64,000 bases of DNA from a virus. Every line of letters begins with the position of its first letter. Positions within the stretch are counted from its first letter, which is position 1. A model generated the notes under the pieces. The model had not been told where the DNA came from. It did no database searches and was given only the letters and a program-made list of their open reading frames with translations. Location of the stretch: positions 1 through 64,000 of the IMG/VR virus record IMGVR_UViG_3300027977_000031. One strand, written 5' to 3'. The position numbers were made by a program, and so were the translations under genes. Shown piece after piece: positions 1-15,357 of this stretch.

Positions 1-156
1 AAGTTCGCCGAGTTGATTGTTCGGGAATGTGCCCGACCCCTAATTTTGTTGGGACGAGAAATGGATAAAGATGCCGAATTCTATAAATATCATTCCAAAG
101 AGGTCATTGCGACACATATGTACATACGATTAGAAAAACATTTCGGAGTTGAATAA
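1..156 (+). CDS. 3' part of a small paralogous protein (MNERI.../KFAELIVRECA/HFGVE* family); start lies outside the window
   Basis: Frame 1 reads KFAELIVRECARP...EKHFGVE* and matches the paralogs at 244, 5218 and 9789. Confidence 0.5.
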   Translation, partial: KFAELIVRECARPLILLGREMDKDAEFYKYHSKEVIATHMYIRLEKHFGVE

Positions 157-3310: not shown

Positions 3311-3339
3311 TTGACCGGTTATTGTTTTGGTCGTATAAT
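3311..3339 (+). promoter_or_regulatory. sigma70-like promoter (TTGACC, 17-nt spacer, TATAAT)
   Basis: Near-identical to the promoter at 9226 (ttgaccggt..ttttg..tataatacac.catagac). Confidence 0.6.
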
Positions 3340-3570: not shown

Positions 3571-4584
3571 ATGCGTAAAATGGCAACTATTCGTCAGATT
3601 GATGCACTAACCCCTATCGAGGGTGCAGATGCTATTGAATGCGCTACCATTGGCGGGTGGAAGGTGGTGGTCAAGAAAGGTGAATTCTCAGTTGGCGATC
3701 GTGCGGTCTATTGCGAAATTGACTCATGGATCCCTACAGAGCTTGCACCATTCCTATCCAAAGGCAAAGAGCCTCGCGAGTTTGAAGGCATCCGCGGAGA
3801 ACGTCTACGCACTGTAAAACTACGTGGACAACTGTCACAAGGCTTGCTGCTGAATCTTGACTTTGCTATTCCACAAACTAATTCTTTTGTGGAAGGTGAT
3901 GACGTGTCTGAAACACTTGGTATTGTCAAGTGGGAACGCCCAATGAATGCTCAGCTGGCTGGCCTGGCTAAAGGTAACTTCCCATCGTTGATTCCCAAGA
4001 CTGATCAGGAACGTGCGCAAAATCTTGTTGAAGAAATCCTTGCGGCTGCACAAGCTGGTACTCAATTTGAGATTACCGAAAAGCTAGAAGGCTCTTCAAT
4101 GACTGTGTACCTGATTGATGGAGAATTTGGTGTTTGCTCACGTAACTTGGACTTGAAAGAAACTGCTGATAACACATTCTGGCAAGTTGCTCGCAGAGAG
4201 CAAATTGAAGAAAAGCTGCGTAACAACAATTACGACAACGTTGCAATTCAAGGTGAGTTGATTGGTCCTGGAATTCAAAACAACATCTACAAGCTGTCTC
4301 AACCAGAGTTTCGTGTGTTTGATGTGTACAATATTCATAGTGGTGCTTATGTTGATCCAGCATTCCGTCGTGCCATGGTTAAATCATTGGGTCTACTGCA
4401 TGTTCCCTTTATCTCTGTCGATAAAGACCTTGGTGTTGGCTCTGTAGAAGAAATTCTGCAATGGGCAGAGGACATGTCAATATTGAATTCTACAGTACAG
4501 CGTGAAGGTATTGTGTTCAAGGAAGTTTGTGGCGGGATGTCTTTCAAAGCTATTTCTAACAAGTACCTGTTGGGCGAGAAATAA
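3571..4584 (+). CDS. ATP-dependent RNA ligase, Rnl2-like nucleotidyltransferase
   Basis: KxxG motif I (EKLEGSS); GELIGPGIQNN and FRVFDV blocks match T4 Rnl2 GEFAGPGIQKN and FYVFDI. Confidence 0.6.
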   Translation: MRKMATIRQIDALTPIEGADAIECATIGGWKVVVKKGEFSVGDRAVYCEIDSWIPTELAPFLSKGKEPREFEGIRGERLRTVKLRGQLSQGLLLNLDFAIPQTNSFVEGDDVSETLGIVKWERPMNAQLAGLAKGNFPSLIPKTDQERAQNLVEEILAAAQAGTQFEITEKLEGSSMTVYLIDGEFGVCSRNLDLKETADNTFWQVARREQIEEKLRNNNYDNVAIQGELIGPGIQNNIYKLSQPEFRVFDVYNIHSGAYVDPAFRRAMVKSLGLLHVPFISVDKDLGVGSVEEILQWAEDMSILNSTVQREGIVFKEVCGGMSFKAISNKYLLGEK

Positions 4585-4587
4585 TTT

Positions 4588-4947
4588 ATGTTGAAAAGTC
4601 TTTTTGTATGTGTGTTATTGACTATGGTTGCAGGCTGCGGCCAGGACCAAAACGACAACCATGGATCATGGGAGTTTGACAACTCCCCCTGGCGGTTGTT
4701 TGATATGAAACAGAATCTCACCAACAACACACAAGTGGAGATACGGTATGCCAAGGCTTCCGAGATACAAGCCGTGTGTGATGCTCAAAGTCGCAAGTTC
4801 GGCTTCAATGGATTCCCTAACGGAGCACTGGCATGCACATGGTATCAAAAGGACCGTTGCGTGATGATCTTGCCCGAGAAGGTGGATATGCGTACAGCTG
4901 GACATGAGTTCTTGCATTGTTTGCAAGGTAATTGGCACAAAGAATGA
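4588..4947 (+). CDS. lipoprotein with an HExxH motif (possible small Zn-metallopeptidase)
   Basis: Signal peptide plus Cys lipobox (MVAGCGQ); HEFLHC motif. Confidence 0.35.
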   Translation: MLKSLFVCVLLTMVAGCGQDQNDNHGSWEFDNSPWRLFDMKQNLTNNTQVEIRYAKASEIQAVCDAQSRKFGFNGFPNGALACTWYQKDRCVMILPEKVDMRTAGHEFLHCLQGNWHKE

Positions 4948-4982
4948 ACAAACAAATTTGAATAATTGCAGTAGGTAGATAA

Positions 4983-5213
4983 ATGTTTAATAAGCTAATT
5001 GACATATTCAAAGAACCCGAGCATGGTATAGTAAAGTTAAGTTTCATTGCGTTGGATGAAAATGAAGAACCGTATGAGGATGTTGCAACAATGCCATATC
5101 ATAAACAATACAGTCAAAGTGATGTCGAAGCCAAGTTTGTGACATTTATGAGTTTACGGAATCACAGGGTACTCGAAATCACAATACTAGAAGTAATCAA
5201 AACAAGTGGGTAA
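4983..5213 (+). CDS. hypothetical protein
   Basis: ORF. Confidence 0.35.
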   Translation: MFNKLIDIFKEPEHGIVKLSFIALDENEEPYEDVATMPYHKQYSQSDVEAKFVTFMSLRNHRVLEITILEVIKTSG

Positions 5214-5217
5214 TATA

Positions 5218-5472
5218 ATGAACGAACGAATTTTTGAACTTGCTAAACAGGCCGATCTTATTCAATGGGACACTCTGCCTTCGGGTGCTAGAACACCCGA
5301 TCACGAAAGTGTTGTCAAGGCACGAAAGTTCGCCGAGTTGATGGTGGCGGAATGTGTTGGTATTGTAGAAAACCTTTCTCCTGGATATAAAGATTATAGA
5401 GATCAAATTGAGGATGTGTTTCGCAGGGATTGTGTGATAGAGATTGTAAAACATTTCGGAGTTGCACTATGA
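5218..5472 (+). CDS. small paralogous protein, MNERI family member 2
   Basis: MNERIFELAK...KFAELMVAEC...KHFGVAL*. Confidence 0.5.
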   Translation: MNERIFELAKQADLIQWDTLPSGARTPDHESVVKARKFAELMVAECVGIVENLSPGYKDYRDQIEDVFRRDCVIEIVKHFGVAL

Positions 5473-5687
5473 AACCAAAGTCGGCTAACGGTGTAGAAGG
5501 ACATTTGATTTGTTCCTTTGATGGTAACTATTATTTTCGTGTGTACAATGGCACGGACTTTGTGGACTATGATTTGACCCATAGTGATTTGTGTGTTACA
5601 ATAACTGATTCTGATGCGTTCTTTTATACAGATACAAATCAGAATCGACTGGATCACAGTCCAGCAACACTAGGACATGAACAATGA
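5469..5687 (+). CDS. hypothetical protein
   Basis: ATG positioned by a variant of the coupling cassette (ggagttgcactATGA). Confidence 0.4.
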   Translation: MKPKSANGVEGHLICSFDGNYYFRVYNGTDFVDYDLTHSDLCVTITDSDAFFYTDTNQNRLDHSPATLGHEQ

Positions 5688-5972
5688 TTGATCACTACAA
5701 ACGTCTTGAAGATGGTGCAATGGACGAGATTGATGCTGCTGTTTGGAGTGGAGACTTGTTCCACAATCGTGCTAACATTGCCGCCTTCCGTGAAATGATG
5801 GCTCGATGGGAACGCGGATTGAAGATGTGCGAAGATATCTTAAATGAAGTACCTGAGAAATGAAATACATTATCAATCGTAACGGATCAATTAAATTGCC
5901 CTGGGAGCCAGGTCTAGTGGAATGGTTACAAAAACGCTACCCACTGAGCCAATATCAAGTTGTAGGAAAATA

Positions 5973-6437
5973 ATGCCAAAAGTTTACGTATTAGTGGGAG
6001 TGCCAGGTTCGGGCAAAAGCACCTGGATTAAGAGCCAAGATTGGGCATTGGGCCTAACTGTGGTTAGCACAGATAATTTTGTAGAAGCATACGCCAAGGA
6101 ACAAGGTAAAACTTATTCTGAAGTGTTTGTTGACTATATGCCCACAGCGGTAGATCTAATGGTCAAAGCGGTTGTTCATGCTCGAGAGCACGGGCATGAT
6201 ATCATTTGGGATCAAACCAGCACTACAGTCAAAAGCCGCAAGAAGAAATTCAACATGTTGCCCGACTACGAGCATATTGCTGTGGTGTTTAAGACACCGG
6301 AACATACAGAACTTATGCGTCGATTGATGAGCCGACCTGGAAAAGACATTCCGGATCATGTTGTTGCCAGTATGATTGCAAGTTGGGAAGATCCAACTGA
6401 AGAAGAAGGGTTCAAGGAAGTTTGGAATGCAAGTTGA
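5973..6437 (+). CDS. P-loop kinase, polynucleotide-kinase (T4 Pnk kinase-domain)-like
   Basis: Walker A VLVGVPGSGKSTW resembles T4 Pnk TIGCPGSGKSTW; 154 aa, kinase domain only. Confidence 0.55.
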   Translation: MPKVYVLVGVPGSGKSTWIKSQDWALGLTVVSTDNFVEAYAKEQGKTYSEVFVDYMPTAVDLMVKAVVHAREHGHDIIWDQTSTTVKSRKKKFNMLPDYEHIAVVFKTPEHTELMRRLMSRPGKDIPDHVVASMIASWEDPTEEEGFKEVWNAS

Positions 6438-6681
6438 AGTTGAATTACATAACGATCTTTTGGGTCGTGACGTGGTTGAAGGGGATGCAGTTGCATTCAC
6501 GCATCAGAATTCTTTGATGGTGGGCAAAGTGGTCAAGATCACACCCAAACAGGTGCGTGTGATCCCACTAATGACAACAGGGTATCGTAGGGAATCAGGC
6601 TACCTCAAGTACACTAATCAATGTGTGTTGATTGGTGGACCGGACTTGACTATGTGGATCTTAAAACAACAAGAAAGGTAA
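6427..6681 (+). CDS. hypothetical protein
   Basis: ORF overlapping the kinase stop; AAGGA RBS. Confidence 0.35.
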   Translation: MQVEVELHNDLLGRDVVEGDAVAFTHQNSLMVGKVVKITPKQVRVIPLMTTGYRRESGYLKYTNQCVLIGGPDLTMWILKQQER

Positions 6682-6683
6682 TC

Positions 6684-7592
6684 GTGGCAGATCGACTTAT
6701 TGATTATTTCCCCTACTTCAACGAACGTGAGTTGTTAGAATTAAGGATCAACCTATTGAAAGATCACGTGGATCATTTTGTGATCTCAGAAGCCAATAAA
6801 ACTTTCAGCGGGTTGCCTAGGCAATTTGAGTTAAAAAACTTGATTGCTGAGTTGGGGCTCCCTGTAGAAAAAATCACTGTGATTGAAGTTCGTATAGCCG
6901 ATGACGTTGATTTGCAGTTGGAACAACATGACTTTGATGCACAGTTTCCCGAGGATCGTGCAGATATTATATCTATACAAGCGGTGGCACGAGAACGCAT
7001 TCAACGTAATGCATTGCAGAAGGTACTTTACAAATTTGATGATACCGATTGGTTTTTGATGAGCGATATTGATGAAATTATCAATCCCAACCATATTGAA
7101 TTTGCATTGAATGTGGCCCGTAATAATCCTGATACGGTTGTGAAGTTGCCATTGATCAATCTGTATGGTAGAGCTGACTTACGACCATATGCTCGTGCAG
7201 GGTGGCCATTTGTTTGGCGTACAGCCATGAGTATTTGTAAAAAATCCATAGTAAGCCAAACAACTCCGCATCGCATTAGATGCAAGTATCATGTTCCGGC
7301 ACAGATAATTACTCCCACAATAGGAGGAGAAATATTTGATAACTTTGGATGGCATTTTAGTTGGATGGGCGGCGATGCTAGAAATCAAATCAAAAGCCGA
7401 TCATATGCACATGCACCAAATCAAGGGCATCAACGGCATAGAAGTCAAGGATTCAAATTTGAAGAAGGTGAGAGTTTGTCCTGGGAACCAGAATCAATTT
7501 TGAAACGATTTCCAGTGGATCAACTGCCTCCCATACTGTTTACGTTACCAAGAGTACAAGAATTTTTGCTTCCCAATTTTACAACAAAATAA
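6684..7592 (+). CDS. hypothetical protein (possible nucleotide-sugar transferase)
   Basis: GTG start after AAAGG; acidic DIDE motif; no firm family. Confidence 0.35.
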   Translation: MADRLIDYFPYFNERELLELRINLLKDHVDHFVISEANKTFSGLPRQFELKNLIAELGLPVEKITVIEVRIADDVDLQLEQHDFDAQFPEDRADIISIQAVARERIQRNALQKVLYKFDDTDWFLMSDIDEIINPNHIEFALNVARNNPDTVVKLPLINLYGRADLRPYARAGWPFVWRTAMSICKKSIVSQTTPHRIRCKYHVPAQIITPTIGGEIFDNFGWHFSWMGGDARNQIKSRSYAHAPNQGHQRHRSQGFKFEEGESLSWEPESILKRFPVDQLPPILFTLPRVQEFLLPNFTTK

Positions 7593-7676
7593 GAATAATA
7601 TCCTGGCTAGTGGTAAAAAGCACTTGACGGTTAAATAAATATCAACTATAATAAACACTTAGGAAAGGGTGTTTTG

Positions 7677-7751
7677 TTGGACTCTAGCATAATGGTTAGT
7701 GCCGCAAACTCATAATTTGTAAGGTTCCGGTTCGAGTCCGGAGGGTCCAAC
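7677..7751 (+). tRNA. tRNA-Met(CAT) elongator or Ile2-type
   Basis: Cloverleaf: acceptor ttggact/ggtccaa, anticodon loop ctCATaa, T-arm ccggttcgagtccgg. Confidence 0.75.
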
Positions 7752-7784
7752 AAAACATCCTACCATTTTTTTCAAGGACACACT

Positions 7785-7988
7785 ATGAAAGTACAATTTG
7801 CACCTGGAGCATTTGATAATTTTGATGGCACCCAAGAAGAACTGGATGCTTTGAAAGCAGAAATTGAAGAAACGTTTGAATCCATGACTTCTGAAGAAAT
7901 TGCTGCGCAAAGCAGAAAAGTTGATTTTGCAGATCTCCCAGAACACTTGCAATCCGATCTTCTTAACCCGCCACGTACTTTGCAATGA
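7785..7988 (+). CDS. hypothetical acidic protein
   Basis: ORF just downstream of the tRNA. Confidence 0.4.
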   Translation: MKVQFAPGAFDNFDGTQEELDALKAEIEETFESMTSEEIAAQSRKVDFADLPEHLQSDLLNPPRTLQ

Positions 7989-8368
7989 AAGACGATCCTG
8001 TCAATGATCTTGAACAAGACATTGTGGCCAGCAAATGGATGGCACAAAAAATAATTGACAGCGACACTTACGCTCAAAATCTCTATGCAGCCATATGCAA
8101 TAATTTATTCCAAAAAAACGATGTATGGCCCAGAATTGCTGATCTCTACTGGTCGTGTACCTGGAGATCTGCTGGTGGAATCATTGCCGATATACGCAAT
8201 CAAGGCGACTACATGGATTGGTACTGCTCGGGCACGATAGCACCCAGCAACCGGAACAGCAATAATGATTCTTATGTGGGTGAGAGTTTTGTTACTGATG
8301 AGATCCGTCAAGACTTGTTTGCCATAGGGTGGACGGTACAACCCTATCCCGATGATGGATTTATATAA
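7985..8368 (+). CDS. hypothetical protein
   Basis: ATGA overlap with the upstream stop. Confidence 0.4.
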   Translation: MKDDPVNDLEQDIVASKWMAQKIIDSDTYAQNLYAAICNNLFQKNDVWPRIADLYWSCTWRSAGGIIADIRNQGDYMDWYCSGTIAPSNRNSNNDSYVGESFVTDEIRQDLFAIGWTVQPYPDDGFI

Positions 8369-8377
8369 CAACTCCTA

Positions 8378-8407
8378 TTGACCTGAATATCATCCGTACT
8401 ATATAAT
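8378..8407 (+). promoter_or_regulatory. sigma70-like promoter (TTGACC ... TATATAAT)
   Basis: Consensus -35; extended TA-rich -10. Confidence 0.4.
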
Positions 8408-8413
8408 AGCACT

Positions 8414-8665
8414 ATGTTTAAAATCTACTACACAGATCCGGTGACAGATTGGAGTCACGCACACAATGCTGACACTTTGACTGAAGCACTTCGTTATACC
8501 GAAGAATTTCGCAAGTTGGGCATGGTCTTTGTTACCATGGTAGCGGAAGATTTAAATCAAGTTGGCAAGCCGGGTGTGGACGCTGTGGTCAACGGCAAGA
8601 CCCCCGACGGTGTGGATTACACCTGGAACAAATCCAGTCGTATCGGCCAGGTCAAAAGGAAATAA
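8414..8665 (+). CDS. hypothetical protein
   Basis: ORF. Confidence 0.4.
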   Translation: MFKIYYTDPVTDWSHAHNADTLTEALRYTEEFRKLGMVFVTMVAEDLNQVGKPGVDAVVNGKTPDGVDYTWNKSSRIGQVKRK

Positions 8666-9215
8666 TATGAAAAATTGGATAACCAGTGATCTCCATTTCG
8701 GGCATAAAAATATCATGAGTTTTTGTCCCCAGTCACGTGCAAGGTTTCGCAATGACGTAAACTATATGAACGAGCAAATGGTTAAAGAATGGAACGACTT
8801 GATTGCTCCTGAAGACACTGTATACATTCTAGGCGATGTGGCATTCTTGCCTGCTCAAAAAGCAGCAGAATACATGCAGAGGTGCAATGGATATAAGATC
8901 TTGGTCGAAGGCAACCACGACCGCAAGACTTTACAAGATTCTGCGTTTCGCAACTGTTTCACAGAAATCCACAAGTATCTGGATGTGCAGTTCAACGAAA
9001 CCAAAGTTGTGATGTTTCATTATCCTATTGCAGAATGGGATCAAATGCATCGCGGTGCGGTTCACTTGCATGGACACCTGCACGGTGGCATCAGCGGAAT
9101 GGAACGATATCGTTGTGTGGATGTGGGCATGGACGCAACTGGTATGATTGCTATCTCTATGGACGAAGCTATTCGAATTGGTCTAAAGGGCGCAATCAAA
9201 GGTCATCATGTGTGA
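8666..9215 (+). CDS. calcineurin-like metallophosphoesterase
   Basis: DLHFGH, GDVAF and GNHD motifs. Confidence 0.7.
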
Positions 9216-9225
9216 ATAATTTTGG

Positions 9226-9254
9226 TTGACCGGTATTGCTCGTTTTGTTATAAT
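9226..9254 (+). promoter_or_regulatory. sigma70-like promoter (TTGACC, 17-nt spacer, TATAAT)
   Basis: Near-duplicate of the promoter at 3311. Confidence 0.6.
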
Positions 9255-9280
9255 ACACACATAGACCAACAAAGGAGCAC

Positions 9281-9787
9281 GTGATGACCATAGTAGAGCG
9301 AGCCCGAGTATTTGCTACCGCTGCTCATGCTGCGGTTAAACAAGTACGAAAGTACACATTTGAATCTTACATTGTGCATCCTGCTGAAGTTGCCAGTATT
9401 GTTGCCACTGTGCCTCATACTGATGAGATGTTGGCTGCTGCTTGGTTGCACGACACCGTGGAAGATACTGGTGTGACCATTGTGGATATCCAAGCAGAGT
9501 TTGGCAACGAAGTTGCTGAGTTAGTTGGGTGGTTGACTGATGTCAGTACTCCAGAACAAGGCAACAGGGCTGTTCGCAAAGCCATCGACCGTGAACATAC
9601 TGCAATGGCACCTGCAGCGGCAGCTACAGTGAAGTTGGCCGACTTAATTGCCAACAGCCGCAGCATCATGGCACACGACCCTGCATTCGCAAAAGTGTAT
9701 TTGGAAGAAAAGCGTATGTTGTTAGAAGTATTAACCCGCGGTGATGCCACATTGATGGCGCAAGCCCGCAGCATTGTAGGAGCATAG
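9281..9787 (+). CDS. HD-domain phosphohydrolase (SpoT/RelA-type HD, (p)ppGpp-hydrolase-like)
   Basis: H..HP...and [10 protein letters not shown] motifs. Confidence 0.65.
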
Positions 9788-9788
9788 T

Positions 9789-10010
9789 ATGAACGAACGA
9801 ATTGGTAAACTTGCTGTCAAGGCTGGAGCACATTGGGAGCATGGCGATTGGAATATGCCGTCTGCTGTGTATTTTAGTGAGAGAGATTTGGAAAAGTTCG
9901 CCGAGTTGATTGTGCGGGAATGTGCCCGAGTATATTGGAATATTGATGATGGTGAGATACATGGTCAATATGTTAATGCGTTAAAACAACATTTTGGAGT
10001 TGAAGAATGA
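9789..10010 (+). CDS. small paralogous protein, MNERI family member 3
   Basis: MNERIGKLAV...KFAELIVRECARV...QHFGVEE*. Confidence 0.55.
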   Translation: MNERIGKLAVKAGAHWEHGDWNMPSAVYFSERDLEKFAELIVRECARVYWNIDDGEIHGQYVNALKQHFGVEE

Positions 10011-10162
10011 CACTGCGTGAAATGATGACTGAGCGTATCCTGTTCTCCGTAGATGACACCACTCTGGCCACAGAGTTTAGCATCAGCCCGGACGAGATTG
10101 CCACACTCAGTGACCTAGACTTTCTGGAACTATTTGAACAAGTCACTGGATTCCAAGGCTAA
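10007..10162 (+). CDS. small acidic hypothetical protein (about 51 aa)
   Basis: ATG inside the coupling cassette (gaagaATGA). Confidence 0.35.
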   Translation: MTLREMMTERILFSVDDTTLATEFSISPDEIATLSDLDFLELFEQVTGFQG

Positions 10163-10195
10163 TGAACAAAATGAATTAGATTTCGGAGTTGAAGA

Positions 10196-10498
10196 ATGAA
10201 CAATACTAACATGAATTCCATACCATCTTTAAGAGAGATGAACACTGCTCTTGAAGTCCTTAAGGCAAACATCAAGGCTTCTACAGAAAAGGCAGCGGCC
10301 CTGACTGTTCAAATTGAAAAAGCGCAGGCACGAGAGATTTTGATTTTTCAAGCACGAACTGAATCTCAGGAGATCATGAAAAAGTACAACCTCAGTGAGG
10401 AAGATGTATTAAGTGCATTATCACTTAGTGAGACTAAAAAAGGCGGACCAGCCAAGACTGGCCTAAGTGCTATTAGAGATTATTATGATAAACTTTAA
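10196..10498 (+). CDS. hypothetical protein
   Basis: Start positioned by the cassette atttcggagttgaagaATGa. Confidence 0.45.
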   Translation: MNNTNMNSIPSLREMNTALEVLKANIKASTEKAAALTVQIEKAQAREILIFQARTESQEIMKKYNLSEEDVLSALSLSETKKGGPAKTGLSAIRDYYDKL

Positions 10499-10528
10499 TA
10501 CGATCAGAAAACATTTTGGAGTTGAAGA

Positions 10529-10732
10529 ATGACAGATTTAGAAAAACTTGAAGCACGTATTGAAGCAGTTGACACAGCTATTGCCGCGACAAAGATGGCC
10601 ATGGGTGTGGATCGCAAACTAGGACACGACAAACACCCCAATGGTCATTACACCAAAGCATTGACTGAGTTGACTGATATCCAAACTAATCTGAACGCAT
10701 TACGGGTTCGAATGATTACTGTAGGTAGATAA
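10529..10732 (+). CDS. hypothetical protein
   Basis: Start positioned by the cassette attttggagttgaagaATGa. Confidence 0.45.
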   Translation: MTDLEKLEARIEAVDTAIAATKMAMGVDRKLGHDKHPNGHYTKALTELTDIQTNLNALRVRMITVGR

Positions 10733-10733
10733 A

Positions 10734-11636
10734 ATGTTTAAAGATGAATTGAAGCAATATGTAGCCGACAATCCTAAGTTGGTTTCGATGAAACCAGCTG
10801 GTGACGGTATCTTTGTTTTGAAATACAAAAAAACTGTATTTTATAAGAACCTGTGGAACAAATATATTGCCGAATGTCGTGGATCTATTGTAGACAAGGA
10901 TTTTAACCTAGTTACATATCCATTTACAAAGATCTACAACTATGGTATTGAAAAAGAATCACCTGTGCTGTCAGATAACACTGAAGTAATCGCATACCGT
11001 AAAGTTAACGGCTTTATGGTTGCTTGTACGTGGGTTAACGGTGATGTATTAGTTTCTACTACCGGTAGTACCGACAGCCCATTTGTTGGCCTGGCCAAGG
11101 AAATGATGCTAACTCACATGTCATGGGCTGATTGGCAGTTGGCGTTTGCCAGTGCCGACATGCAAGGACTAACTGTAATGTTTGAGTGTGTTCATCCTGA
11201 CGATCCGCACATCTGTCCTGAAAAGGCTGGTATGTATGTACTAGGTCTTCGTGACAACAAATGGTGTAGTCGTATTGGACACAGCCCTGAAGTTCTCAAA
11301 ATAATGGGAACTGTATTCAACTGCTATGTTCCCGAAGTATATAGAGTTAGTCTAGGGGAACTCAAACAGATGACTAAAGAATGTCGTCACGAAGGTTATG
11401 TATTCTATACCCAAGATGGCGTGAGTGCCAAAATCAAGAGTCCTTACTACTTGACTTCGAAGTGGGTTGCTCGTAATCCCAACACTGACAAGTTGATGCG
11501 TGAGGATTTCAAGCAGCAAATTGAAGAAGAATATTATCCTTTGCTTGCTGCCATCCAAGCAGATATAGAAGCATATACTGCAAAGACTGAACAAGAACGA
11601 CTGACGTGGGTACGCAACTATCTGGAGGCAGCATGA
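10734..11636 (+). CDS. RNA ligase 1 (T4 RnlA-like)
   Basis: KxNG motif (RKVNGFM); ECRGSIV matches T4 Rnl1 ECRGIMF; C-terminal EGYVFYTQDGVSAKIKSPYY matches [20 protein letters not shown]. Confidence 0.65.
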   Translation: MFKDELKQYVADNPKLVSMKPAGDGIFVLKYKKTVFYKNLWNKYIAECRGSIVDKDFNLVTYPFTKIYNYGIEKESPVLSDNTEVIAYRKVNGFMVACTWVNGDVLVSTTGSTDSPFVGLAKEMMLTHMSWADWQLAFASADMQGLTVMFECVHPDDPHICPEKAGMYVLGLRDNKWCSRIGHSPEVLKIMGTVFNCYVPEVYRVSLGELKQMTKECRHEGYVFYTQDGVSAKIKSPYYLTSKWVARNPNTDKLMREDFKQQIEEEYYPLLAAIQADIEAYTAKTEQERLTWVRNYLEAA

Positions 11637-11812
11637 AAGATGAAAGCCATTTGCCTGTGAGTGAACAAAGTTTGATTTTTCGTCTGCGCAAGCGAGCTGA
11701 GATTCGTCGGCAGATCAGTTCACGTAAAAGTGTCGCGGAAGGTGCGCCTGACCGCATTGCTGATCTGCTGGAAGAAGCTGCTGATGCGTTAGAAGCAGCA
11801 GAGTCAAAATAA
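11633..11812 (+). CDS. hypothetical protein
   Basis: ORF overlapping the ligase stop. Confidence 0.3.
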   Translation: MKDESHLPVSEQSLIFRLRKRAEIRRQISSRKSVAEGAPDRIADLLEEAADALEAAESK

Positions 11813-11864
11813 AAATATTCGTAACTTTTTTGCCAAAAAACGCTAAAAAAAGTAATCTTAAAGG

Positions 11865-11893
11865 TTGACAAGGTATAAATAAACATATAAAAT
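11865..11893 (+). promoter_or_regulatory. sigma70-like promoter (TTGACA, 17-nt spacer, TAAAAT)
   Basis: Consensus -35 with 17-nt spacing; lies upstream of an ORF-free, terminator-bounded unit. Confidence 0.5.
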
Positions 11894-11894
11894 A

Positions 11895-12087
11895 CATGCT
11901 ATGACACACTCGATACATCATTTAACACTCAAATCACTGACACCAAGTCAGGGCACCTGCCCCGCCTTGTGGTTTGCGATTGAGATGAATTATGATCGTG
12001 GGGCCTGGGTCCAAGGAGACCGAGTATAACAAAATAGCATACTCAACATCCAAGGACCCCAGGACTAAACACCCTGGGGTTTTTTGT
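11895..12087 (+). ncRNA. candidate small RNA (promoter to intrinsic terminator, no credible ORF)
   Basis: Promoter at 11865 and terminator at 12057-12087; about 190 nt with internal GC-rich hairpins. Confidence 0.3.
12057..12087 (+). terminator. rho-independent terminator
   Basis: ccccagg-(9 nt)-cctgggg hairpin followed by TTTTTTG. Confidence 0.75.
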
Positions 12088-12319
12088 TTTGTAGAGTAGT
12101 AAAAATAGTGTGAAGTATACCAGTAACGAGGACTGGGCCCTGCACTTTAAACACGGGGCAAACGGGCGGTGGCGAGGATGGCTTATCTTCTTGTAGATAA
12201 AAAAATTCGTCATATTAAAGCAAACTGGACAGACATGTCTCCTGTAAAACGGAGAAGTATGGTGGTGATGACAGTTTGTTTTAATATACGCATTCCTATT
12301 GAGAATGCGTAAATAATCA

Positions 12320-13084
12320 ATGCCCGTATTCTTAAACTCGGTGATAGAGTTTTACATCACTAATCAATGCAATTTAGCCTGTACTAACTGTAATAGATTC
12401 AATGATCACGATTTTCGTGGTCACTACTATTGGGAAGATTCAGCTGATGCTGTAACTGCCTGGAGTCAGAGGATTAATGCACCAATGATTACTATCATTG
12501 GTGGTGAGCCCAGCTTGCATCCTGAACTAGAAACTTGGATAGTAAATCTTCGTAGATTGTGGCCAGAAACCACAATCATGATACAGAGTAATGGTACCAA
12601 CACAAAGGTAGCAAAAAGTCTTGTCTCTTATAGTAAATACCGTGTGGGATGGGGTGTAAGTTTACATCGACCAGAGATGCGTCCTGCATTGGAACGACAA
12701 TGGGGTAACCTCATTGACAATACAGAATTTACCCCGGCTGCAATAATCCCGCAAGGTGATGTATTTGCTGTGCATAACAGTGATCCAATAACTGCATTTA
12801 ATGCCTGTACCATGCGGCATAGTCACACTATATTCAAAGGACAACTGTATAAGTGTCCTGTGATGGCAGTGTTGCCAGAATTTCGTACACAACAATCAGT
12901 AATCATGGATTCAAGGCAAGAACAGTTGTTGTCACAGTATCAACCATTAAATGCTGACTGTACTGAGCAACAGTTAGTGGACTTTGTTAATACAAGACAT
13001 CAACACATTGATCAATGTGAATTTTGCCCTGGCGTATTTGATTTCGAGCCAGTGGTATTTCATCCAAGAAAAAAAATGCTCTGA
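12320..13084 (+). CDS. radical SAM enzyme (small, QueE/activase-like fold)
   Basis: CNLACTNC = CxxxCxxC; IIGGEP motif. Confidence 0.6.
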   Translation: MPVFLNSVIEFYITNQCNLACTNCNRFNDHDFRGHYYWEDSADAVTAWSQRINAPMITIIGGEPSLHPELETWIVNLRRLWPETTIMIQSNGTNTKVAKSLVSYSKYRVGWGVSLHRPEMRPALERQWGNLIDNTEFTPAAIIPQGDVFAVHNSDPITAFNACTMRHSHTIFKGQLYKCPVMAVLPEFRTQQSVIMDSRQEQLLSQYQPLNADCTEQQLVDFVNTRHQHIDQCEFCPGVFDFEPVVFHPRKKML

Positions 13085-13107
13085 TGGCATTTTGATAATT
13101 GTTCTGT

Positions 13108-13181
13108 TGGGGGTTAGTTAAATGGTATAACAGCGGATTTTGATTCCGCTATTAATGGTTCGATTCCATTACCCTCTGCCA
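13108..13181 (+). tRNA. tRNA-Gln(TTG)
   Basis: Anticodon arm gcgga-ttTTGat-tccgc; T-arm aatggttcgattccatt; CCA encoded. Confidence 0.7.
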
Positions 13182-13261
13182 TTATTCGTTCTAGGTTCGA
13201 GCCCTGGCACGTCTGCCAAACAACAAAGACCCTTTATATTGAAAGGGCATTACAAAACAAG

Positions 13262-13290
13262 TTGACCAGTATCGCACTAGGTGTTATACT
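13262..13290 (+). promoter_or_regulatory. sigma70-like promoter (TTGACC, 17-nt spacer, TATACT), copy 1 of a tandem duplicate
   Basis: About 50-bp direct repeat acaaaacaagttgaccagtatcgcactaggtgttatactagagactagt. Confidence 0.5.
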
Positions 13291-13356
13291 AGAGACTAGT
13301 CAGAAAGCAACAAGAGTTGCAAAGTCCTTCCAAGTTGTAGGGTTTTGCAAAACAAG

Positions 13357-13385
13357 TTGACCAGTATCGCACTAGGTGTTATACT
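13357..13385 (+). promoter_or_regulatory. sigma70-like promoter, copy 2 of the tandem duplicate
   Basis: Identical -35, spacer and -10 to copy 1, 95 bp downstream. Confidence 0.5.
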
Positions 13386-13717
13386 AGAGACTAGTTAGAA
13401 ACAAAGACAGTTGATAGAGACTACTTTGTATGTTCCTTAAAAAGTTAATTTTTTGTATAGTGTACTCGGGTCAGACCCGGGCACTATATGTAAACAAATA
13501 AGGTTACCTACACCGTTAGGAACTTTGTGCGAGCAACGTGGGGCCGCCCACGCTCAATAGTCAGAGTTCATGAAGCAGGACGTTGATCCGGATTTAGTGC
13601 CGGGGAGTTCGGAGTAGCGGCGGAGAATGTAGGCAGTGATGACCGTGCAGGCCCTATGTAGACGTTGCATAGGGTAGACGAAGATGCACAATGGTTCCTT
13701 GTTTGTTTTCATATAGT

Positions 13718-13792
13718 GGAGCATTCGTCTATCGGTTAGGACAGTGGGTTTTCAGTCCACTAAGAGCGGTTCGATTCCGCTATGCTCTACCA
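13718..13792 (+). tRNA. tRNA-Glu(TTC)
   Basis: Acceptor ggagcat/atgctct; anticodon loop ttTTCag; T-arm agcggttcgattccgct. Confidence 0.8.
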
Positions 13793-13874
13793 AGTTTTAT
13801 AGGAGAGTCGCAGTCGAGTCCATGCGTACTCTTAAACGAAGGGCCTACGGAGCCGCGTCCTGTCATTAGTACAT

Positions 13875-13959
13875 GGAGAATCCGCCGCAATGGTGTGGCA
13901 GGGGACTGTAAATCCTCCGACTTAGGTCATGACTGGTTCGATCCCAGTATTCTCCACCA
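13875..13959 (+). tRNA. tRNA-Tyr(GTA), class II
   Basis: Acceptor ggagaat/attctcc; anticodon loop ctGTAaa; long variable arm. Confidence 0.8.
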
Positions 13960-13963
13960 ATTT

Positions 13964-14039
13964 GGTCTTAAAGTGTTCATGGACGCACGACGGCTTGTCA
14001 CGCCGTAAGAGTGGGGATCGTTACCCCCTAAGACCGCCA
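13964..14039 (+). tRNA. tRNA-Asp(GTC)
   Basis: Acceptor ggtctta/taagacc; anticodon arm acggc-ttGTCac-gccgt. Confidence 0.85.
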
Positions 14040-14240
14040 AAACCACCTTAGGTCCGTTAGTCGCAAACGGTTATGGCAAGGGTTGTTCCTGCCTGGCGTC
14101 CGGATGAATAAGACTGTACCCCGTTAGTGTACGCTGGAGAAAGTAACCAGCACCATTATTGAAGCACATACCTAACGCCCTCTTGGAATGGGAGATAGTG
14201 TCCACAGCACTGAAGAAAGGTTCAAATGTGTTTCAATAAT

Positions 14241-14315
14241 GGGCTGTTAGTGATAATGGTAGCACAGGGGCTTTGCACGTCTCAGGTAAGAGTTCGATTC
14301 TCTTACGGTCCACCA
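14241..14315 (+). tRNA. tRNA-Ala(TGC)
   Basis: Anticodon arm ggggc-ttTGCac-gtctc; T-arm aagagttcgattctctt. Confidence 0.8.
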
Positions 14316-14322
14316 AGTTTAT

Positions 14323-14396
14323 GCGGGATTAGTTTAATGGTAAAACTGTAGATTTCCAATCTTCCGTCATCAGTTCGATTCTGATATCCCGCTCCA
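14323..14396 (+). tRNA. tRNA-Gly(TCC)
   Basis: Acceptor gcgggat/atcccgc; anticodon loop ttTCCaa; T-arm atcagttcgattctgat. Confidence 0.7.
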
Positions 14397-14404
14397 AGTT
14401 TAAT

Positions 14405-14481
14405 CTGTGTTTAGCTCAGTCTGGTAGAGTTCTTGGCCTGGAACCAAGGGGTCGTAGGTTCGAATCCTACAGCGCAGACCA
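14405..14481 (+). tRNA. tRNA-Pro(TGG) (unusual C33)
   Basis: Anticodon arm cttgg-ccTGGaa-ccaag; T-arm gtaggttcgaatcctac. Confidence 0.6.
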
Positions 14482-14486
14482 ATTAA

Positions 14487-14576
14487 GGAACGGTCCCGTA
14501 ATGGTATCGGAGCAGATTGCTAATCTGTCGGCTCACGAAAGTGGGCTTCTGAGTTCGAGTCTCAGTCGTTCCGCCA
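14487..14576 (+). tRNA. tRNA-Ser(GCT), class II
   Basis: Anticodon arm gcaga-ttGCTaa-tctgt; long variable arm; T-arm ctgagttcgagtctcag. Confidence 0.8.
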
Positions 14577-14583
14577 ATATAAT

Positions 14584-14659
14584 GCACCTTTAGCTGATGT
14601 GGTCATAGCGGCGGCCTGAAGAGCCGTGGAAGTTGGTTCAATTCCAACAGGGTGTACCA
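14584..14659 (+). tRNA. tRNA-Phe(GAA) (G37, irregular D-arm)
   Basis: Anticodon arm gcggc-ctGAAga-gccgt; T-arm gttggttcaattccaac. Confidence 0.55.
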
Positions 14660-14956
14660 AGTTTTGTAAGTGTTAGCAAGTGAAGTCACGCTATAAAGGT
14701 TACTTCGAAGGACCAATATAGTAAAAGGTAAGGGGTTCGAATCCCCGGCCCTCGAAAGGGAGTTAGTTCCAAACGGTGGACATGCTGGATGAATCCCAAG
14801 TAACGTACCGAATCCCGCTCGAGCTTGTTAATTCGGGTGAATGGTTCCTATAATGTGGTGGAACAACTTACAAATTCAATATGGAGATATAGTTGATGTC
14901 AGCACAGTGACTGAAATTTTCTGTATCACCACTCAAGAGATATATAAAATACTATT

Positions 14957-15034
14957 CCGCAGAACCCGAGCGTGGTGCATGGGCTGGACTGTTAATCCAT
15001 GGTTAGCTGGGATCGTCACCCAGATGCGGAGCCA
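14957..15034 (+). pseudogene. degenerate tRNA-like gene (possible Asn GTT anticodon; A54 T-loop atcgtca; acceptor mismatch)
   Basis: Acceptor tccgcag/atgcgga (6 of 7 pairs); 4-bp anticodon stem tgga/tcca with loop ctGTTaa; ends gCCA. Confidence 0.3.
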
Positions 15035-15039
15035 AACAA

Positions 15040-15113
15040 GCCCCATTAGTATAATGGCATTATGACGGTTTTGTAATCCGTTGGCGGGAGTTCGATTCTC
15101 TCATGGGGCACCA
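15040..15113 (+). tRNA. tRNA-Thr(TGT)
   Basis: Acceptor gccccat/atggggc; anticodon loop ttTGTaa. Confidence 0.75.
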
Positions 15114-15119
15114 AGTTAT

Positions 15120-15198
15120 CGCGGGGTAGGGGAGTCTAGTCGTCCCCGCCAGTCTCATAAGCTGGAGATCGGAGGTGCGAATCCTCCCCCCGCAACCA
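15120..15198 (+). tRNA. initiator tRNA-fMet(CAT)
   Basis: 5' CGCGGGG ... CCCCGCAACCA 3' with a C1xA72 mismatch as in E. coli tRNAfMet; anticodon loop ctCATaa. Confidence 0.85.
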
Positions 15199-15352: not shown

Positions 15353-15357
15353 AATAT

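What the first reader, a model, noticed from the sequence alone, without database searches (positions are those of the whole stretch)
3571..11636. RNA-repair gene set: Rnl2-like and Rnl1-like ligases, Pnk-like kinase, calcineurin-like phosphoesterase, HD hydrolase
Two different RNA ligase families are present: Rnl2-like at 3571 (KLEGSS, GPGIQNN) and T4 RnlA-like at 10734 (ECRGS, KVNG, EGYVFYTQDGVSAKIKSPYY). A stand-alone T4-Pnk-type kinase domain (VGVPGSGKSTW) lies between them, followed by a metallophosphoesterase (GNHD) that could supply the 3'-phosphatase/CPDase step in trans, and an HD-domain hydrolase. In T4, Pnk plus Rnl1 repair anticodon-nuclease damage to tRNA; here the set sits beside a large phage-encoded tRNA complement, which suggests countering a host tRNA-cleaving defence such as PrrC, RloC or a VapC-type toxin. 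The split kinase/phosphatase arrangement and dual ligases are unusual.
Basis: partly seen in the sequence, partly recalled or inferred. Interest (0 to 1): 0.75.

Follow-up and report, generated by a model that had tools for sequence, protein, structure and literature searches.

The report
Phage RNA-end repair gene cluster
A large uncultivated freshwater phage carries, next to its own set of about 30 tRNA genes, separate genes for an RNA 5'-kinase, two phosphoesterases and two RNA ligases; this most likely mends host-cut tRNAs and is a real but already recognised kind of phage counter-defence.

Summary
No ligase falls in a DNA-ligase or capping family, and the kinase is not a nucleotide kinase.

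Corrections:
- The ligase at 3571 belongs to the Rnl5 family (DraRnl/NgrRnl), with an N-terminal OB domain. It is not Rnl2.
- The ligase at 10734 is a short, divergent Rnl1-family enzyme. It lacks T4's roughly 120-aa C-terminal domain.
- The kinase starts at 5973. It groups with polynucleotide and tRNA kinases, and a 49%-identical homologue is fused to a Pnkp-type HAD phosphatase.
- The HD protein is a RelA/SpoT-type small alarmone hydrolase.

Gene neighbourhoods show a conserved module. The metallophosphoesterase lies beside the Rnl1-like ligase in 53 of 53 distinct loci. The kinase does so in 43 of 53, the HD hydrolase in 33 of 53 and Rnl5 in only 3 of 53.

Best reading: a disaggregated heal-and-seal pathway for tRNA, with Rnl5 loosely attached. 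Which phosphoesterase heals the 3' end is not known.

The arrangement is not unusual. It recurs in Otagovirus, Busanvirus, Ralstonia phage RSP15 and Pakpunavirus, and has been described computationally. I rate it a new member of a known kind, of moderate interest.

The parts
3571..4584 (+). [quoted passage not shown] It has an N-terminal OB domain and a C-terminal nucleotidyltransferase domain. The motif I lysine lies in KLEGSS (nt 4081-4098). It is only loosely associated with the module.
   Evidence: Full-length match to Naegleria gruberi RNA ligase 5cot, E 2.7e-90, with motifs I, III, IV and V aligned. Pfam PHA02142 OB domain plus RNA_ligase. NCBIfam TIGR02306 RNA_lig_DRB0094, 197 bits against a cut-off of 151; the Rnl2 model scores 15 bits against 197. 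phrog_968, 6.8e-88.
5973..6437 (+). Stand-alone polynucleotide-kinase-type P-loop kinase, 154 aa. P-loop GVPGSGKST at nt 5997-6023; candidate general-base Asp34 at nt 6072-6074; IIWDQT; Arg-rich lid RRLMSRPGK. No fused phosphatase domain.
   Evidence: Pfam AAA_33, 70.8 bits. A family profile against PDB gives PSTK 1e-15, Pnkp1 3e-12, T4 Pnk 4e-11, CthPnk 1e-8 and mammalian PNKP 2e-8; other kinases score at 7e-5 or worse. D34 aligns with T4 D35. NCBIfam best hit is bacterial Pnkp. Homologue P0276 (49% identical, 320 aa) carries a C-terminal HAD_PNKP domain at 1.4e-36. The start codon comes from gene calls on the identical contig.
7678..7751 (+). tRNA-Met (CAT) lying between the kinase and the metallophosphoesterase. 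It is the first gene of the phage tRNA complement, which runs from 7678 to 26715.
   Evidence: ARAGORN; Rfam tRNA model, 59 bits.
8667..9215 (+). aq_1665-type dinuclear metallophosphoesterase, 182 aa. All signature motifs are present: SDLHFGH, LGDVAF, GNHD, MFHYP and HGHLHG. It is the candidate 2',3'-cyclic phosphodiesterase / 3'-phosphatase, and it is the invariant partner of the Rnl1-like ligase.
9284..9787 (+). RelA/SpoT-type HD hydrolase (small alarmone hydrolase), 167 aa. The active-site residues are intact: H in VHPAEV, HD and ED in LHDTVEDT, and D and N in KLADLIAN.
   Evidence: Pfam HD_4, 57.8 bits. PDB Rel/SpoT hydrolase domains at 4e-15 to 1e-9, plus MESH1 and SAH entries. NCBIfam spoT_relA. 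It lies next to the ligase in 33 of 53 distinct loci.
10734..11636 (+). Short Rnl1-family RNA ligase, 300 aa. Motif I lysine K90 lies in RKVNGF (nt 10998-11015); motif III MFECVHP; motif IV HEGYVFY; motif V AKIKSPYY. Only about 55 helical residues follow motif V.
   Evidence: Pfam RNA_lig_T4_1, 43.2 bits. phrog_562, 4e-49. Profile A1 hits T4 Rnl1 at 3e-13 over T4 residues 50-249. AF2 model pLDDT 88.6. Foldseek top hits are T4 Rnl1 (E 2e-13, TMq 0.67), then fungal Trl1 ligase domains, then archaeal Rnl3.
9226..9254 (+). One of four intergenic sigma70-like sites (TTGACC-N17-TATAAT, 11 of 12 matches) upstream of module genes. The other three are at 3311-3339, 7624-7652 and 8378-8407. They tentatively suggest several short early transcription units.
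   Evidence: Consensus scan only. The total number of sites is not above the shuffled expectation (24 against 23.5), so this is a lead, not a finding.

Best explanation
The region encodes a disaggregated RNA 'heal-and-seal' pathway belonging to an uncultivated jumbo phage. The source contig is at least 256 kb, and the host is probably a freshwater betaproteobacterium.

Proposed mechanism:
1. A host ribonuclease, most plausibly a metal-independent anticodon nuclease, cuts tRNA and leaves a 2',3'-cyclic phosphate and a 5'-OH.
2. The stand-alone Pnk-type kinase (5973-6437) phosphorylates the 5'-OH.
3. The aq_1665-type metallophosphoesterase (8667-9215) opens and removes the cyclic or 3' phosphate. 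This is the job done by the HAD domain of T4 Pnkp and by the metallophosphoesterase domain of bacterial Pnkp.
4. The short Rnl1-family ligase (10734-11636) adenylylates the 5'-phosphate and reseals the loop.

The RelA/SpoT-type HD hydrolase (9284-9787) is a frequent fourth member. It either removes 3'-(pyro)phosphate from tRNA ends or degrades alarmones made by toxic RelA-SpoT-type synthetases.

The Rnl5 ligase (3571-4584) is a separate nick-sealing enzyme for breaks inside duplex RNA. It is only occasionally found in this neighbourhood.

What is shown: the gene identities, the intact catalytic motifs and the conserved linkage. What is inferred: the substrates, the order of steps and the assignment of the 3'-healing step to the metallophosphoesterase.
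For: Family assignments with intact active sites.

Kinase:
- The nearest solved relatives are all polynucleotide or tRNA kinases.
- A 49%-identical homologue is fused to a Pnkp-type HAD 3'-phosphatase. This fusion indicates that the window's protein is the kinase half of a Pnkp.

Linkage, counted after removing duplicate ligase sequences:
- In 39 loci of the same jumbo-phage clade (ligase 65-100% identical), within 6 kb of the ligase: metallophosphoesterase 39/39, kinase 32/39, HD 22/39.
- In 14 loci of distant clades (ligase 37-45% identical, including Otagovirus phiPsa267, Busanvirus ACP17, Ralstonia phage RSP15 and Variovorax phage V45v66), within 8 kb: metallophosphoesterase 14/14, kinase 11/14, HD 11/14.
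- Gene order is shuffled between lineages but proximity is kept.
- In the 373-kb relative L004 the four genes are strictly consecutive at 8371-10900.
- The weak kinase hits in distant clades all pass the Pfam AAA_33 threshold.

Context: 29 tRNA genes and a tmRNA lie immediately downstream.

Precedents:
- Metallophosphoesterases (CthPnkp and lambda phosphatase) have 2',3'-cyclic phosphodiesterase and 3'-phosphatase activity (PMC2190708, PMC3675462).
- Small alarmone hydrolases remove 3'-pyrophosphate from the tRNA CCA end (10.1101/2021.04.30.441581).
- Jumbo-phage RNA-repair sets with calcineurin-like or HD phosphatases have been predicted (PMC7824862).
Against: - No biochemistry exists for any member of this kinase, metallophosphoesterase or short-Rnl1 family.
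- The kinase has no Arg at the position of T4 Pnk R38 (alignment; the importance of that residue is from my own knowledge). Its best profile hit is PSTK, which phosphorylates an aminoacyl group rather than a 5'-OH.
- The ligase has T at the position of T4 K119 and N at the position of T4 D101 (alignment; residue roles from my own knowledge). It also lacks T4's C-terminal domain, which, from my own knowledge, confers tRNA specificity.
- Ten of 53 loci show no kinase within the flank searched.
- In the window itself the genes are separated by a glycosyltransferase, a tRNA gene and small ORFs, and possibly by several promoters.
- No host nuclease is known.
Confidence: 0.62

Rival explanations
1. 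The pathway is the same, but the two phosphoesterases have different roles. The RelA/SpoT-type HD hydrolase is the RNA 3'-end healing enzyme, removing 3'-phosphate or pyrophosphate, including the CCA pyrophosphorylation made by toxic alarmone synthetases. The metallophosphoesterase is a trimming nuclease or phosphodiesterase that prepares ragged ends for the ligase.
Against: The HD hydrolase is absent from 20 of 53 loci, whereas the metallophosphoesterase is never absent. If one enzyme is indispensable to the ligase, it is the metallophosphoesterase. The PdeM and nuclease similarities are no stronger than those to many other metallophosphoesterases.
Confidence: 0.2
2. The genes are independent auxiliary or counter-defence genes that merely share the phage's early-gene and tRNA island. 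On this view the alarmone hydrolase acts against the stringent response or toxic alarmone synthetases, the metallophosphoesterase acts against nucleotide signals, and the ligases and kinase have other tasks. There is no common pathway.
For: In the window the genes are interrupted by unrelated ORFs, a tRNA gene and several promoter-like sites. Iyer et al. treat the HD alarmone phosphodiesterase as a counter-nucleotide-signal enzyme (PMC7824862). The metallophosphoesterase family occurs in 1450 phage records, including Staphylococcus, Listeria and Bacillus phages that do not appear among the organism names listed for the Rnl1-like search.
Against: Proximity is retained across clades whose ligases are only 37-45% identical, despite reshuffled order. 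In some relatives the genes are strictly consecutive. A homologue fuses this kinase type to a Pnkp phosphatase.
Confidence: 0.12
3. The set processes DNA or RNA-DNA hybrid ends during phage replication or repair, in the manner of mammalian PNKP. Rnl5 would seal RNA-terminated nicks, and the kinase and metallophosphoesterase would clean DNA ends.
For: The Rnl5 founder DraRnl contributes to radiation resistance and genome reassembly in Deinococcus. Its physiological substrate is uncharted, and a polynucleotide kinase gene lies nearby there (PMC5397189). In some relatives an ATP-dependent DNA ligase lies a few kb downstream or next to the module.
Against: The conserved ligase of the module is Rnl1-type, and its solved relatives (T4 Rnl1, fungal Trl1) are tRNA ligases. 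The module sits in the tRNA and tmRNA island. Rnl5 is the least conserved member.
Confidence: 0.06

Closest known systems
Bacteriophage T4 tRNA repair pathway (Pnkp plus Rnl1), which counters the PrrC anticodon nuclease
   Same: A Pnk-type P-loop kinase with the catalytic Asp and an Arg-rich lid aligned to T4 Pnk. An Rnl1-family ligase whose best sequence and fold matches are T4 Rnl1. Phage-encoded. The proposed heal-then-seal logic is the same.
   Different: The kinase is not fused to a HAD (DxDxT) 3'-phosphatase. Candidate 3'-healing enzymes are a separate metallophosphoesterase and an HD hydrolase. The ligase is 300 aa against 374 aa, lacks the long C-terminal domain and scores far below the T4 RnlA equivalog cut-off (28.7 against 242 bits). 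The module sits beside a full tRNA set.
Bacterial Pnkp-Hen1 RNA repair system (Clostridium thermocellum Pnkp: kinase, metallophosphoesterase and ligase in one polypeptide)
   Same: The same three chemistries: a P-loop 5'-kinase (CthPnk hit 1e-8; NCBIfam bacter_Pnkp is the kinase's top hit), a dinuclear metallophosphoesterase and an ATP-dependent RNA ligase. phrog_8238, a 737-aa profile, matches both the window's kinase and its ligase.
Rnl5 nick-sealing RNA ligases (Deinococcus radiodurans DraRnl, Naegleria gruberi NgrRnl)
   Same: The 3571-4584 protein aligns over its full length with NgrRnl (E 2.7e-90). It has the N-terminal OB domain and all nucleotidyltransferase motifs, and it passes the DRB0094 equivalog cut-off.
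   Different: None at the sequence level. It is simply a phage member of a family already known to include bacterial viruses (PMC5397189). Its physiological substrate is as unknown here as elsewhere.
Gene sets of cultured phages: Pakpunavirus Adele, Otagovirus phiPsa267, Busanvirus ACP17 and Ralstonia phage RSP15
   Same: Stand-alone 5'-kinase lacking a phosphatase, two RNA ligases, a small alarmone hydrolase and a tRNA cluster in Adele (PMC12846349). HD, metallophosphoesterase, Rnl1-like ligase and AAA_33 kinase in phiPsa267. Ligase, kinase, HD and metallophosphoesterase in ACP17. HD, kinase, ligase and metallophosphoesterase beside tRNAs in RSP15.
   Different: The proteins are only 35-45% identical. 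The window's phage is a jumbo phage of a different, uncultivated clade. Most of its close relatives add a DSP-type cysteine phosphatase that the window lacks.
Small alarmone hydrolases (MESH1, ATfaRel, phage-encoded SAHs)
   Same: HD_4 fold with His, HD, ED and Asp/Asn active-site residues. Single-domain protein of about 170 aa.
   Different: Here it is embedded in an RNA-ligase, kinase and metallophosphoesterase neighbourhood rather than paired with a toxic synthetase. Its substrate has not been tested.

Membership tests
Rnl5 (DraRnl/NgrRnl) RNA ligase | N-terminal OB domain followed by a C-terminal nucleotidyltransferase domain, matching over the full length | tested here: met
   Pfam PHA02142 OB domain (residues 9-100) plus RNA_ligase (170-332). 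Alignment of query residues 6-339 with NgrRnl residues 4-335, E 2.7e-90.
Rnl5 (DraRnl/NgrRnl) RNA ligase | Score above the curated equivalog cut-off, with the motif I lysine present | tested here: met
   TIGR02306, 197.4 bits against a cut-off of 151.15. KLEGSS aligns with NgrRnl KLDGSS.
Rnl2 (T4 Rnl2 / kinetoplastid REL) RNA ligase | Score above the Rnl2 equivalog cut-off; N-terminal nucleotidyltransferase domain plus the Rnl2-specific C-terminal domain | tested here: not met
   TIGR02307, 15.5 bits against a cut-off of 197.15. The domain order is OB then nucleotidyltransferase, not nucleotidyltransferase then C-terminal domain.
Rnl1 (T4 RnlA / fungal Trl1 ligase) family | Nucleotidyltransferase domain with motifs I, III, IV and V and the upstream ECRG and PxxK(F/Y) elements | tested here: met
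   Profile A1 against T4 Rnl1, 3e-13. K90, E151, E220-G221, K233 and K235, R49 and K66 align with T4 K99, E159, E227-G228, K240 and K242, R54 and K75 (the essentiality of the T4 residues is from my own knowledge). Foldseek top hits are T4 Rnl1 and Trl1.
Rnl1 (T4 RnlA / fungal Trl1 ligase) family | Equivalog-level similarity to T4 RnlA | tested here: not met
   TIGR02308, 28.7 bits against a cut-off of 242.25. A single-sequence search found no PDB hit at E 0.1 or better.
Rnl1 (T4 RnlA / fungal Trl1 ligase) family | C-terminal all-helical domain of about 120 aa that confers tRNA specificity in T4 Rnl1 (my own knowledge) | tested here: not met
   Only about 55 residues follow motif V. They are predicted helical, with block pLDDT of 63-83. 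The HMM alignment stops at T4 residue 249.
T4-type polynucleotide kinase-phosphatase (Pnkp) | P-loop kinase domain with a catalytic Asp about 20 residues after the P-loop lysine and an Arg-rich lid | tested here: met
   GVPGSGKST; D34 aligns with T4 D35; RRLMSRPGK aligns with T4 KRNSKRGTK. T4 Pnk E 3.7e-11 with the profile.
T4-type polynucleotide kinase-phosphatase (Pnkp) | Fused C-terminal HAD (DxDxT) 3'-phosphatase domain | tested here: not met
   The protein is 154 aa, kinase domain only. A homologue, P0276, does carry HAD_PNKP.
T4-type polynucleotide kinase-phosphatase (Pnkp) | 5'-OH polynucleotide kinase activity | not testable with these tools
   This needs an enzyme assay. There is no Arg at the position of T4 R38, and the best profile hit is PSTK, so specificity is not settled.
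Bacterial Pnkp-Hen1 system | Kinase, metallophosphoesterase and ligase domains in a single polypeptide | tested here: not met
   They are three separate genes at 5973, 8667 and 10734.
Bacterial Pnkp-Hen1 system | Adjacent Hen1 RNA 2'-O-methyltransferase | not tested
   No methyltransferase appeared among the ORFs I scanned with Pfam. I did not scan every ORF of the window.
Calcineurin-like dinuclear metallophosphoesterase superfamily | Motifs DxH, GD, GNH(D/E), H and GHxH, and the fold | tested here: met
RelA/SpoT-homologue hydrolase (small alarmone hydrolase) | HD_4 domain above the cut-off, with the His, HD, ED and Asp catalytic residues | tested here: met
   PF13328, 57.8 bits against a cut-off of 27.2. 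Alignments to Rel hydrolase domains conserve HP, LHD, VED and LAD.

The most novel reading that the evidence does not exclude
The invariant pairing of an aq_1665-type metallophosphoesterase with a short Rnl1 ligase, joined in most lineages by a Pnk-type kinase and a RelA/SpoT-type HD hydrolase, would be a distinct four-enzyme tRNA-rescue pathway. In it an alarmone-hydrolase fold works directly on RNA 3' ends. One cassette would then reverse both anticodon-loop cleavage and the CCA-end pyrophosphorylation inflicted by toxic alarmone synthetases such as CapRel or FaRel2. A DSP-type cysteine phosphatase would act as a further interchangeable healing module in relatives.
Probability: 0.2. Interest if true: 0.7.

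Novelty: new member of a known kind. Interest (0 to 1): 0.4.

Why it matters
Phage RNA repair has been demonstrated only for T4 (Pnkp plus Rnl1).

This locus belongs to a much more widespread layout, found from Pseudomonas and Ralstonia phages to abundant freshwater jumbo phages. In that layout the 3'-healing step has been handed to enzymes that nobody has characterised.

The neighbourhood statistics nominate one specific protein family, the aq_1665-type metallophosphoesterases, as the obligatory partner of the short Rnl1 ligases. They also raise a testable idea: that phage small alarmone hydrolases act on tRNA ends.

These proteins are small, soluble-looking and easy to assay. The outcome would show which host tRNA-targeting defences these phages have evolved to survive.

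Tried and rejected
- A megablast search of the region against 50,697 phage records found nothing. The phage has no close cultured relative.
- A single-sequence PDB search with the Rnl1-like protein found nothing at E 0.1 or better. A seven-sequence profile was needed.
- Pfam on the metallophosphoesterase found nothing, even at E 1 or better. Its identity rests on PHROGs, PDB entry aq_1665, the motifs, the fold and its orthologues.
- The three large-database protein searches returned only relatives at least 69% identical in their top 120 hits. They served for AF2 alignments and contig look-ups, not for domain-architecture surveys. The 50%-representative search supplied the one informative fusion.
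- I looked in the window for the DSP-type phosphatase that precedes the kinase in most relatives. It is absent (tblastn best E 0.04).
- I considered that the weak 'kinase' HMM hits in distant clades were generic P-loop matches. This is rejected, because all seven tested pass the Pfam AAA_33 cut-off.
- I considered Rnl2 membership for the first ligase and rejected it.
- The promoter scan gave five strong intergenic sites, but the overall count is not above chance, so I draw no operon model from it.
- A Pfam scan of ten further ORFs downstream found no additional RNA-repair enzymes such as RtcB, a CCA-adding enzyme, a 2H phosphoesterase or Tpt1. I did not scan every ORF of the window.

Full report
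**Observation**

Gene calls on metagenome contigs that carry the identical sequence refine three starts: kinase 5973, metallophosphoesterase 8667 and HD hydrolase 9284.

The interval also holds genes that are not part of the story:
- a lipoprotein-like HExxH protein (4588-4947);
- a GT17-like glycosyltransferase (6621-7592);
- a tRNA-Met gene (7678-7751);
- about a dozen small ORFs.

ARAGORN finds 29 tRNA genes between 7678 and 26715, covering all 20 amino acids. An HMM scan of all six frames of the 64-kb window found exactly one copy of each of the five families, all within 8.1 kb. Under uniform placement that has a probability of roughly 1e-3 (my calculation).

**The two ligases**

The 3571-4584 protein aligns end to end with the crystal-structure protein Naegleria gruberi RNA ligase (E 2.7e-90, motifs I, III, IV and V conserved).
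- It has the PHA02142 OB domain ahead of the RNA_ligase nucleotidyltransferase domain.
- It passes NCBI's DRB0094 equivalog cut-off (197 against 151 bits) and fails the Rnl2 model (15 against 197 bits).
- It is therefore an Rnl5-family nick-sealing ligase, not Rnl2. The family is known to include bacterial viruses, and its physiological substrates are uncharted (PMC5397189).

The 10734-11636 protein passes Pfam RNA_lig_T4_1 (43 bits) and matches phrog_562 (4e-49).
- A seven-sequence profile hits T4 Rnl1 at 3e-13 over T4 residues 50-249.
- That alignment matches the T4 residues R54, K75, K99, G102, E159, E227, G228, K240 and K242. T4 D101 is Asn here and K119 is Thr. The roles of these T4 residues are from my own knowledge.
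- An AlphaFold2 model (pLDDT 88.6) finds T4 Rnl1 first (Foldseek E 2e-13, TMq 0.67), then fungal Trl1 ligase domains, then archaeal Rnl3.
- It is nonetheless far below the T4 RnlA equivalog cut-off (28.7 against 242 bits).
- Only about 55 helical residues follow motif V, where T4 has a 120-residue domain.

**The kinase**

Pfam places it in AAA_33. A 12-sequence profile ranks only polynucleotide or tRNA kinases at the top of the PDB:

| Protein | E-value |
|---|---|
| PSTK | 1e-15 |
| Capnocytophaga Pnkp1 | 3e-12 |
| T4 Pnk | 4e-11 |
| C. thermocellum Pnk | 1e-8 |
| mammalian PNKP | 2e-8 |
| shikimate or adenylate kinases and others | 7e-5 or worse |

- D34 aligns with the T4 general base D35.
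- The lid RRLMSRPGK aligns with T4 KRNSKRGTK.
- There is no Arg at the T4 R38 position.
- In a search of 1.8 billion cluster representatives, nearly all of the 150 best hits listed are stand-alone proteins of about 155 aa. One 49%-identical member (P0276, 320 aa) carries a C-terminal HAD_PNKP phosphatase domain (1.4e-36). That is the T4 Pnkp architecture, so the window's protein is the kinase half of a Pnkp without its phosphatase.

**The two phosphoesterases**

Metallophosphoesterase:
- It keeps all dinuclear-centre motifs.
- It matches phrog_547 (1.6e-51) and Aquifex aq_1665 (2e-21).
- The fold and the active site are certain. The substrate is not.

HD protein:
- It is a RelA/SpoT-type hydrolase, that is, a small alarmone hydrolase.
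- HD_4 scores 57.8 bits.
- Rel hydrolase domains match at 4e-15 to 1e-9, along with MESH1 and SAH structures.
- The His, HD, ED and Asp/Asn residues are intact.

**Origin and surroundings**

- There is no near match among cultured phages.
- The exact ligase sequence occurs on at least 24 metagenome contigs, and the exact kinase sequence on a contig of 255,929 bp.
- Relatives with 65-75% identical ligases sit on contigs of 214-393 kb. This is therefore an abundant uncultivated jumbo-phage clade.
- The nearest cultured homologues are from Variovorax, Acidovorax, Ralstonia and Limnohabitans phages.
- The window also encodes a betaproteobacterial-type tmRNA and a TctC-family binding protein.
- From this I infer a freshwater betaproteobacterial host.

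**Conserved neighbourhood**

I scanned 108 loci fetched from public collections with HMMs for the five families plus a DSP-type phosphatase. I then removed duplicate ligase sequences.

| Gene near the Rnl1-like ligase | Jumbo clade, 39 distinct loci, within 6 kb | Distant clades, 14 distinct loci, within 8 kb |
|---|---|---|
| Metallophosphoesterase | 39 | 14 |
| Kinase | 32 | 11 |
| DSP-PTPase | 31 | none detected |
| HD hydrolase | 22 | 11 |
| Rnl5 | 1 | 2 |

- The commonest order in the jumbo clade is DSP, kinase, metallophosphoesterase, HD, ligase. In L004 these genes are strictly consecutive.
- The window's own lineage has Rnl5 7.1 kb from the Rnl1-like ligase, just outside the 6-kb counting window.
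- The distant clades have ligases only 37-45% identical. They include Otagovirus phiPsa267, Busanvirus ACP17, Ralstonia phage RSP15 and Variovorax phage V45v66.
- The weak kinase hits in those clades all pass the Pfam AAA_33 cut-off.
- Gene order differs between lineages while proximity persists. That pattern argues for functional coupling rather than shared descent of a frozen block.
- The metallophosphoesterase-ligase pair is the invariant core. The kinase and the HD hydrolase are frequent members. Rnl5 is an occasional neighbour.

**Mechanism**

[quoted passage not shown] The proposed steps are 5'-phosphorylation by the kinase, 3'-end healing by a phosphoesterase, and sealing by the Rnl1-type ligase.

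I assign healing to the metallophosphoesterase for two reasons. It is never absent from the neighbourhood. Metallophosphoesterases of Pnkp and of phage lambda have exactly this cyclic phosphodiesterase-monoesterase activity (PMC2190708, PMC3675462).

The HD hydrolase may instead, or additionally, act on RNA 3' ends. Small alarmone hydrolases remove the 3'-pyrophosphate that toxic alarmone synthetases add to the tRNA CCA end, which the authors describe as a Pnk-like 3'-phosphatase activity (10.1101/2021.04.30.441581).

Everything beyond gene identity, motif integrity and linkage is inference. Points against the model:
- No member of these families has been assayed.
- The metallophosphoesterase is not specifically Pnkp-like.
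- The kinase lacks an equivalent of T4 R38.
- The ligase lacks T4's C-terminal domain, which in T4 confers tRNA specificity (my own knowledge).
- Ten of 53 loci show no kinase within the flank searched.
- In the window the genes are interspersed with unrelated ORFs and several promoter-like sites.

**Comparison with what is known, and novelty**

The concept is already in the literature.
- Iyer et al. 2021 describe jumbo-phage RNA repair with combinations of Rnl1, Rnl2 and RtcB, polynucleotide kinases and tRNA arrays. [quoted passage not shown]
- The Pakpunavirus Adele paper describes a stand-alone 5'-kinase lacking the 3'-phosphatase domain, two RNA ligases, a small alarmone hydrolase and 17 tRNAs (PMC12846349).

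The window is therefore a new member of a known, computationally described kind.

What this analysis adds:
- the reassignment of the first ligase to Rnl5;
- the fusion evidence that the kinase is a Pnkp kinase half;
- the finding that an aq_1665-type metallophosphoesterase is the obligatory neighbour of short Rnl1 ligases across distant phage clades;
- the observation that a RelA/SpoT-type hydrolase is a regular member of that neighbourhood.

**Limits**

- Flanks were at most 10 kb, so 'absent' means absent nearby, not absent from the genome.
- The loci come from two seeded searches, so they are not an unbiased sample of phage diversity.
- I ran no formal null model for co-occurrence across whole genomes.

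Noticed in passing
window 17677-18140 (+): A full-length GOLLD RNA (Rfam RF02032, 200.8 bits against a gathering score of 150, model positions 1-416 of 416) lies inside the tRNA array. ARAGORN's tRNA-Asn gene (17739-17812) is embedded within it.
   Followed up: no
window 26709-27062 (+): A phage-encoded tmRNA of betaproteobacterial type (RF01850, 91.7 bits against 84; also RF04321 tmRNA_permuted, 94 bits, at 26761-26999) sits directly after the last tRNA. ARAGORN did not call it. Together with the tRNAs and the repair genes, this makes the first 27 kb a translation-maintenance island.
   Followed up: no
relatives, e.g. L004 7832-8371 and L007 5252-5992; absent from the window: A DSP-type cysteine phosphatase (HCxxGxxRS motif; Pfam Tc-R-P, DSPc and 'Swiss Army Knife' PTP-SAK hits) precedes the kinase in 31 of 39 distinct relatives. 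It has no counterpart anywhere in the 64-kb window. It may be an interchangeable RNA-end phosphatase module.
   Followed up: partly
window 1-153, 208-477, 5206-5472, 9789-10010 (+): Four copies of a small paralogous ORF family (MNERI..ELAK..FAELIVREC..HFGVEE, 35-45% identical to one another) are scattered between the repair genes. Their function is unknown.
   Followed up: partly
window 3311-3339, 7624-7652, 8378-8407, 9226-9254, 11865-11893 (+): Five sigma70-like sites match 11 of 12 consensus positions and share the form TTGACC/TTGACA-N17-TATAAT. All are on the + strand and in intergenic gaps. The total number of promoter-like sites is not above the shuffled expectation.
   Followed up: no
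window 29629-30558 (+): A TctC ('Bug') family periplasmic solute-binding protein is encoded by the phage (Pfam, 72 bits). This is unusual cargo and hints at a Burkholderiales host.
   Followed up: no
window 12320-13084, 24197-25240 (+) and 50238-51608 (-); 42417-43895 (-); 18919-21215 (+): There are several radical-SAM proteins, a Nol-like carbamoyltransferase and a run of sugar-nucleotide genes (cytidylyltransferase, PfkB kinase, cupin, epimerase/dehydratase). This suggests a nucleotide-sugar or nucleic-acid modification pathway.
   Followed up: no
window 15729-16391 (-), 18301-18822 (+), 33803-35086 (+): Endonuclease-like genes, two of them HNH-type, are interspersed with the tRNA array. One lies on the opposite strand between tRNA genes. 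They look like mobile insertions.
   Followed up: no
window 18888-18960 and 25664-25738 (+); 21608-21699 (+): Rfam calls two further tRNAs that ARAGORN missed. ARAGORN's tRNA-Ile(TAT) is 92 nt long with the anticodon at an odd position, and it has no Rfam tRNA hit in the gathering-threshold list.
   Followed up: no
L003 8977-9912 (Ralstonia phage RSP15 ORF097): The RSP15 orthologue of the Rnl1-like ligase is annotated 'metallophosphoesterase', and the adjacent kinase is annotated 'NEDD4-binding protein' in GenBank. These are probably annotations transferred from multidomain Pnkp and N4BP2 proteins.
   Followed up: partly
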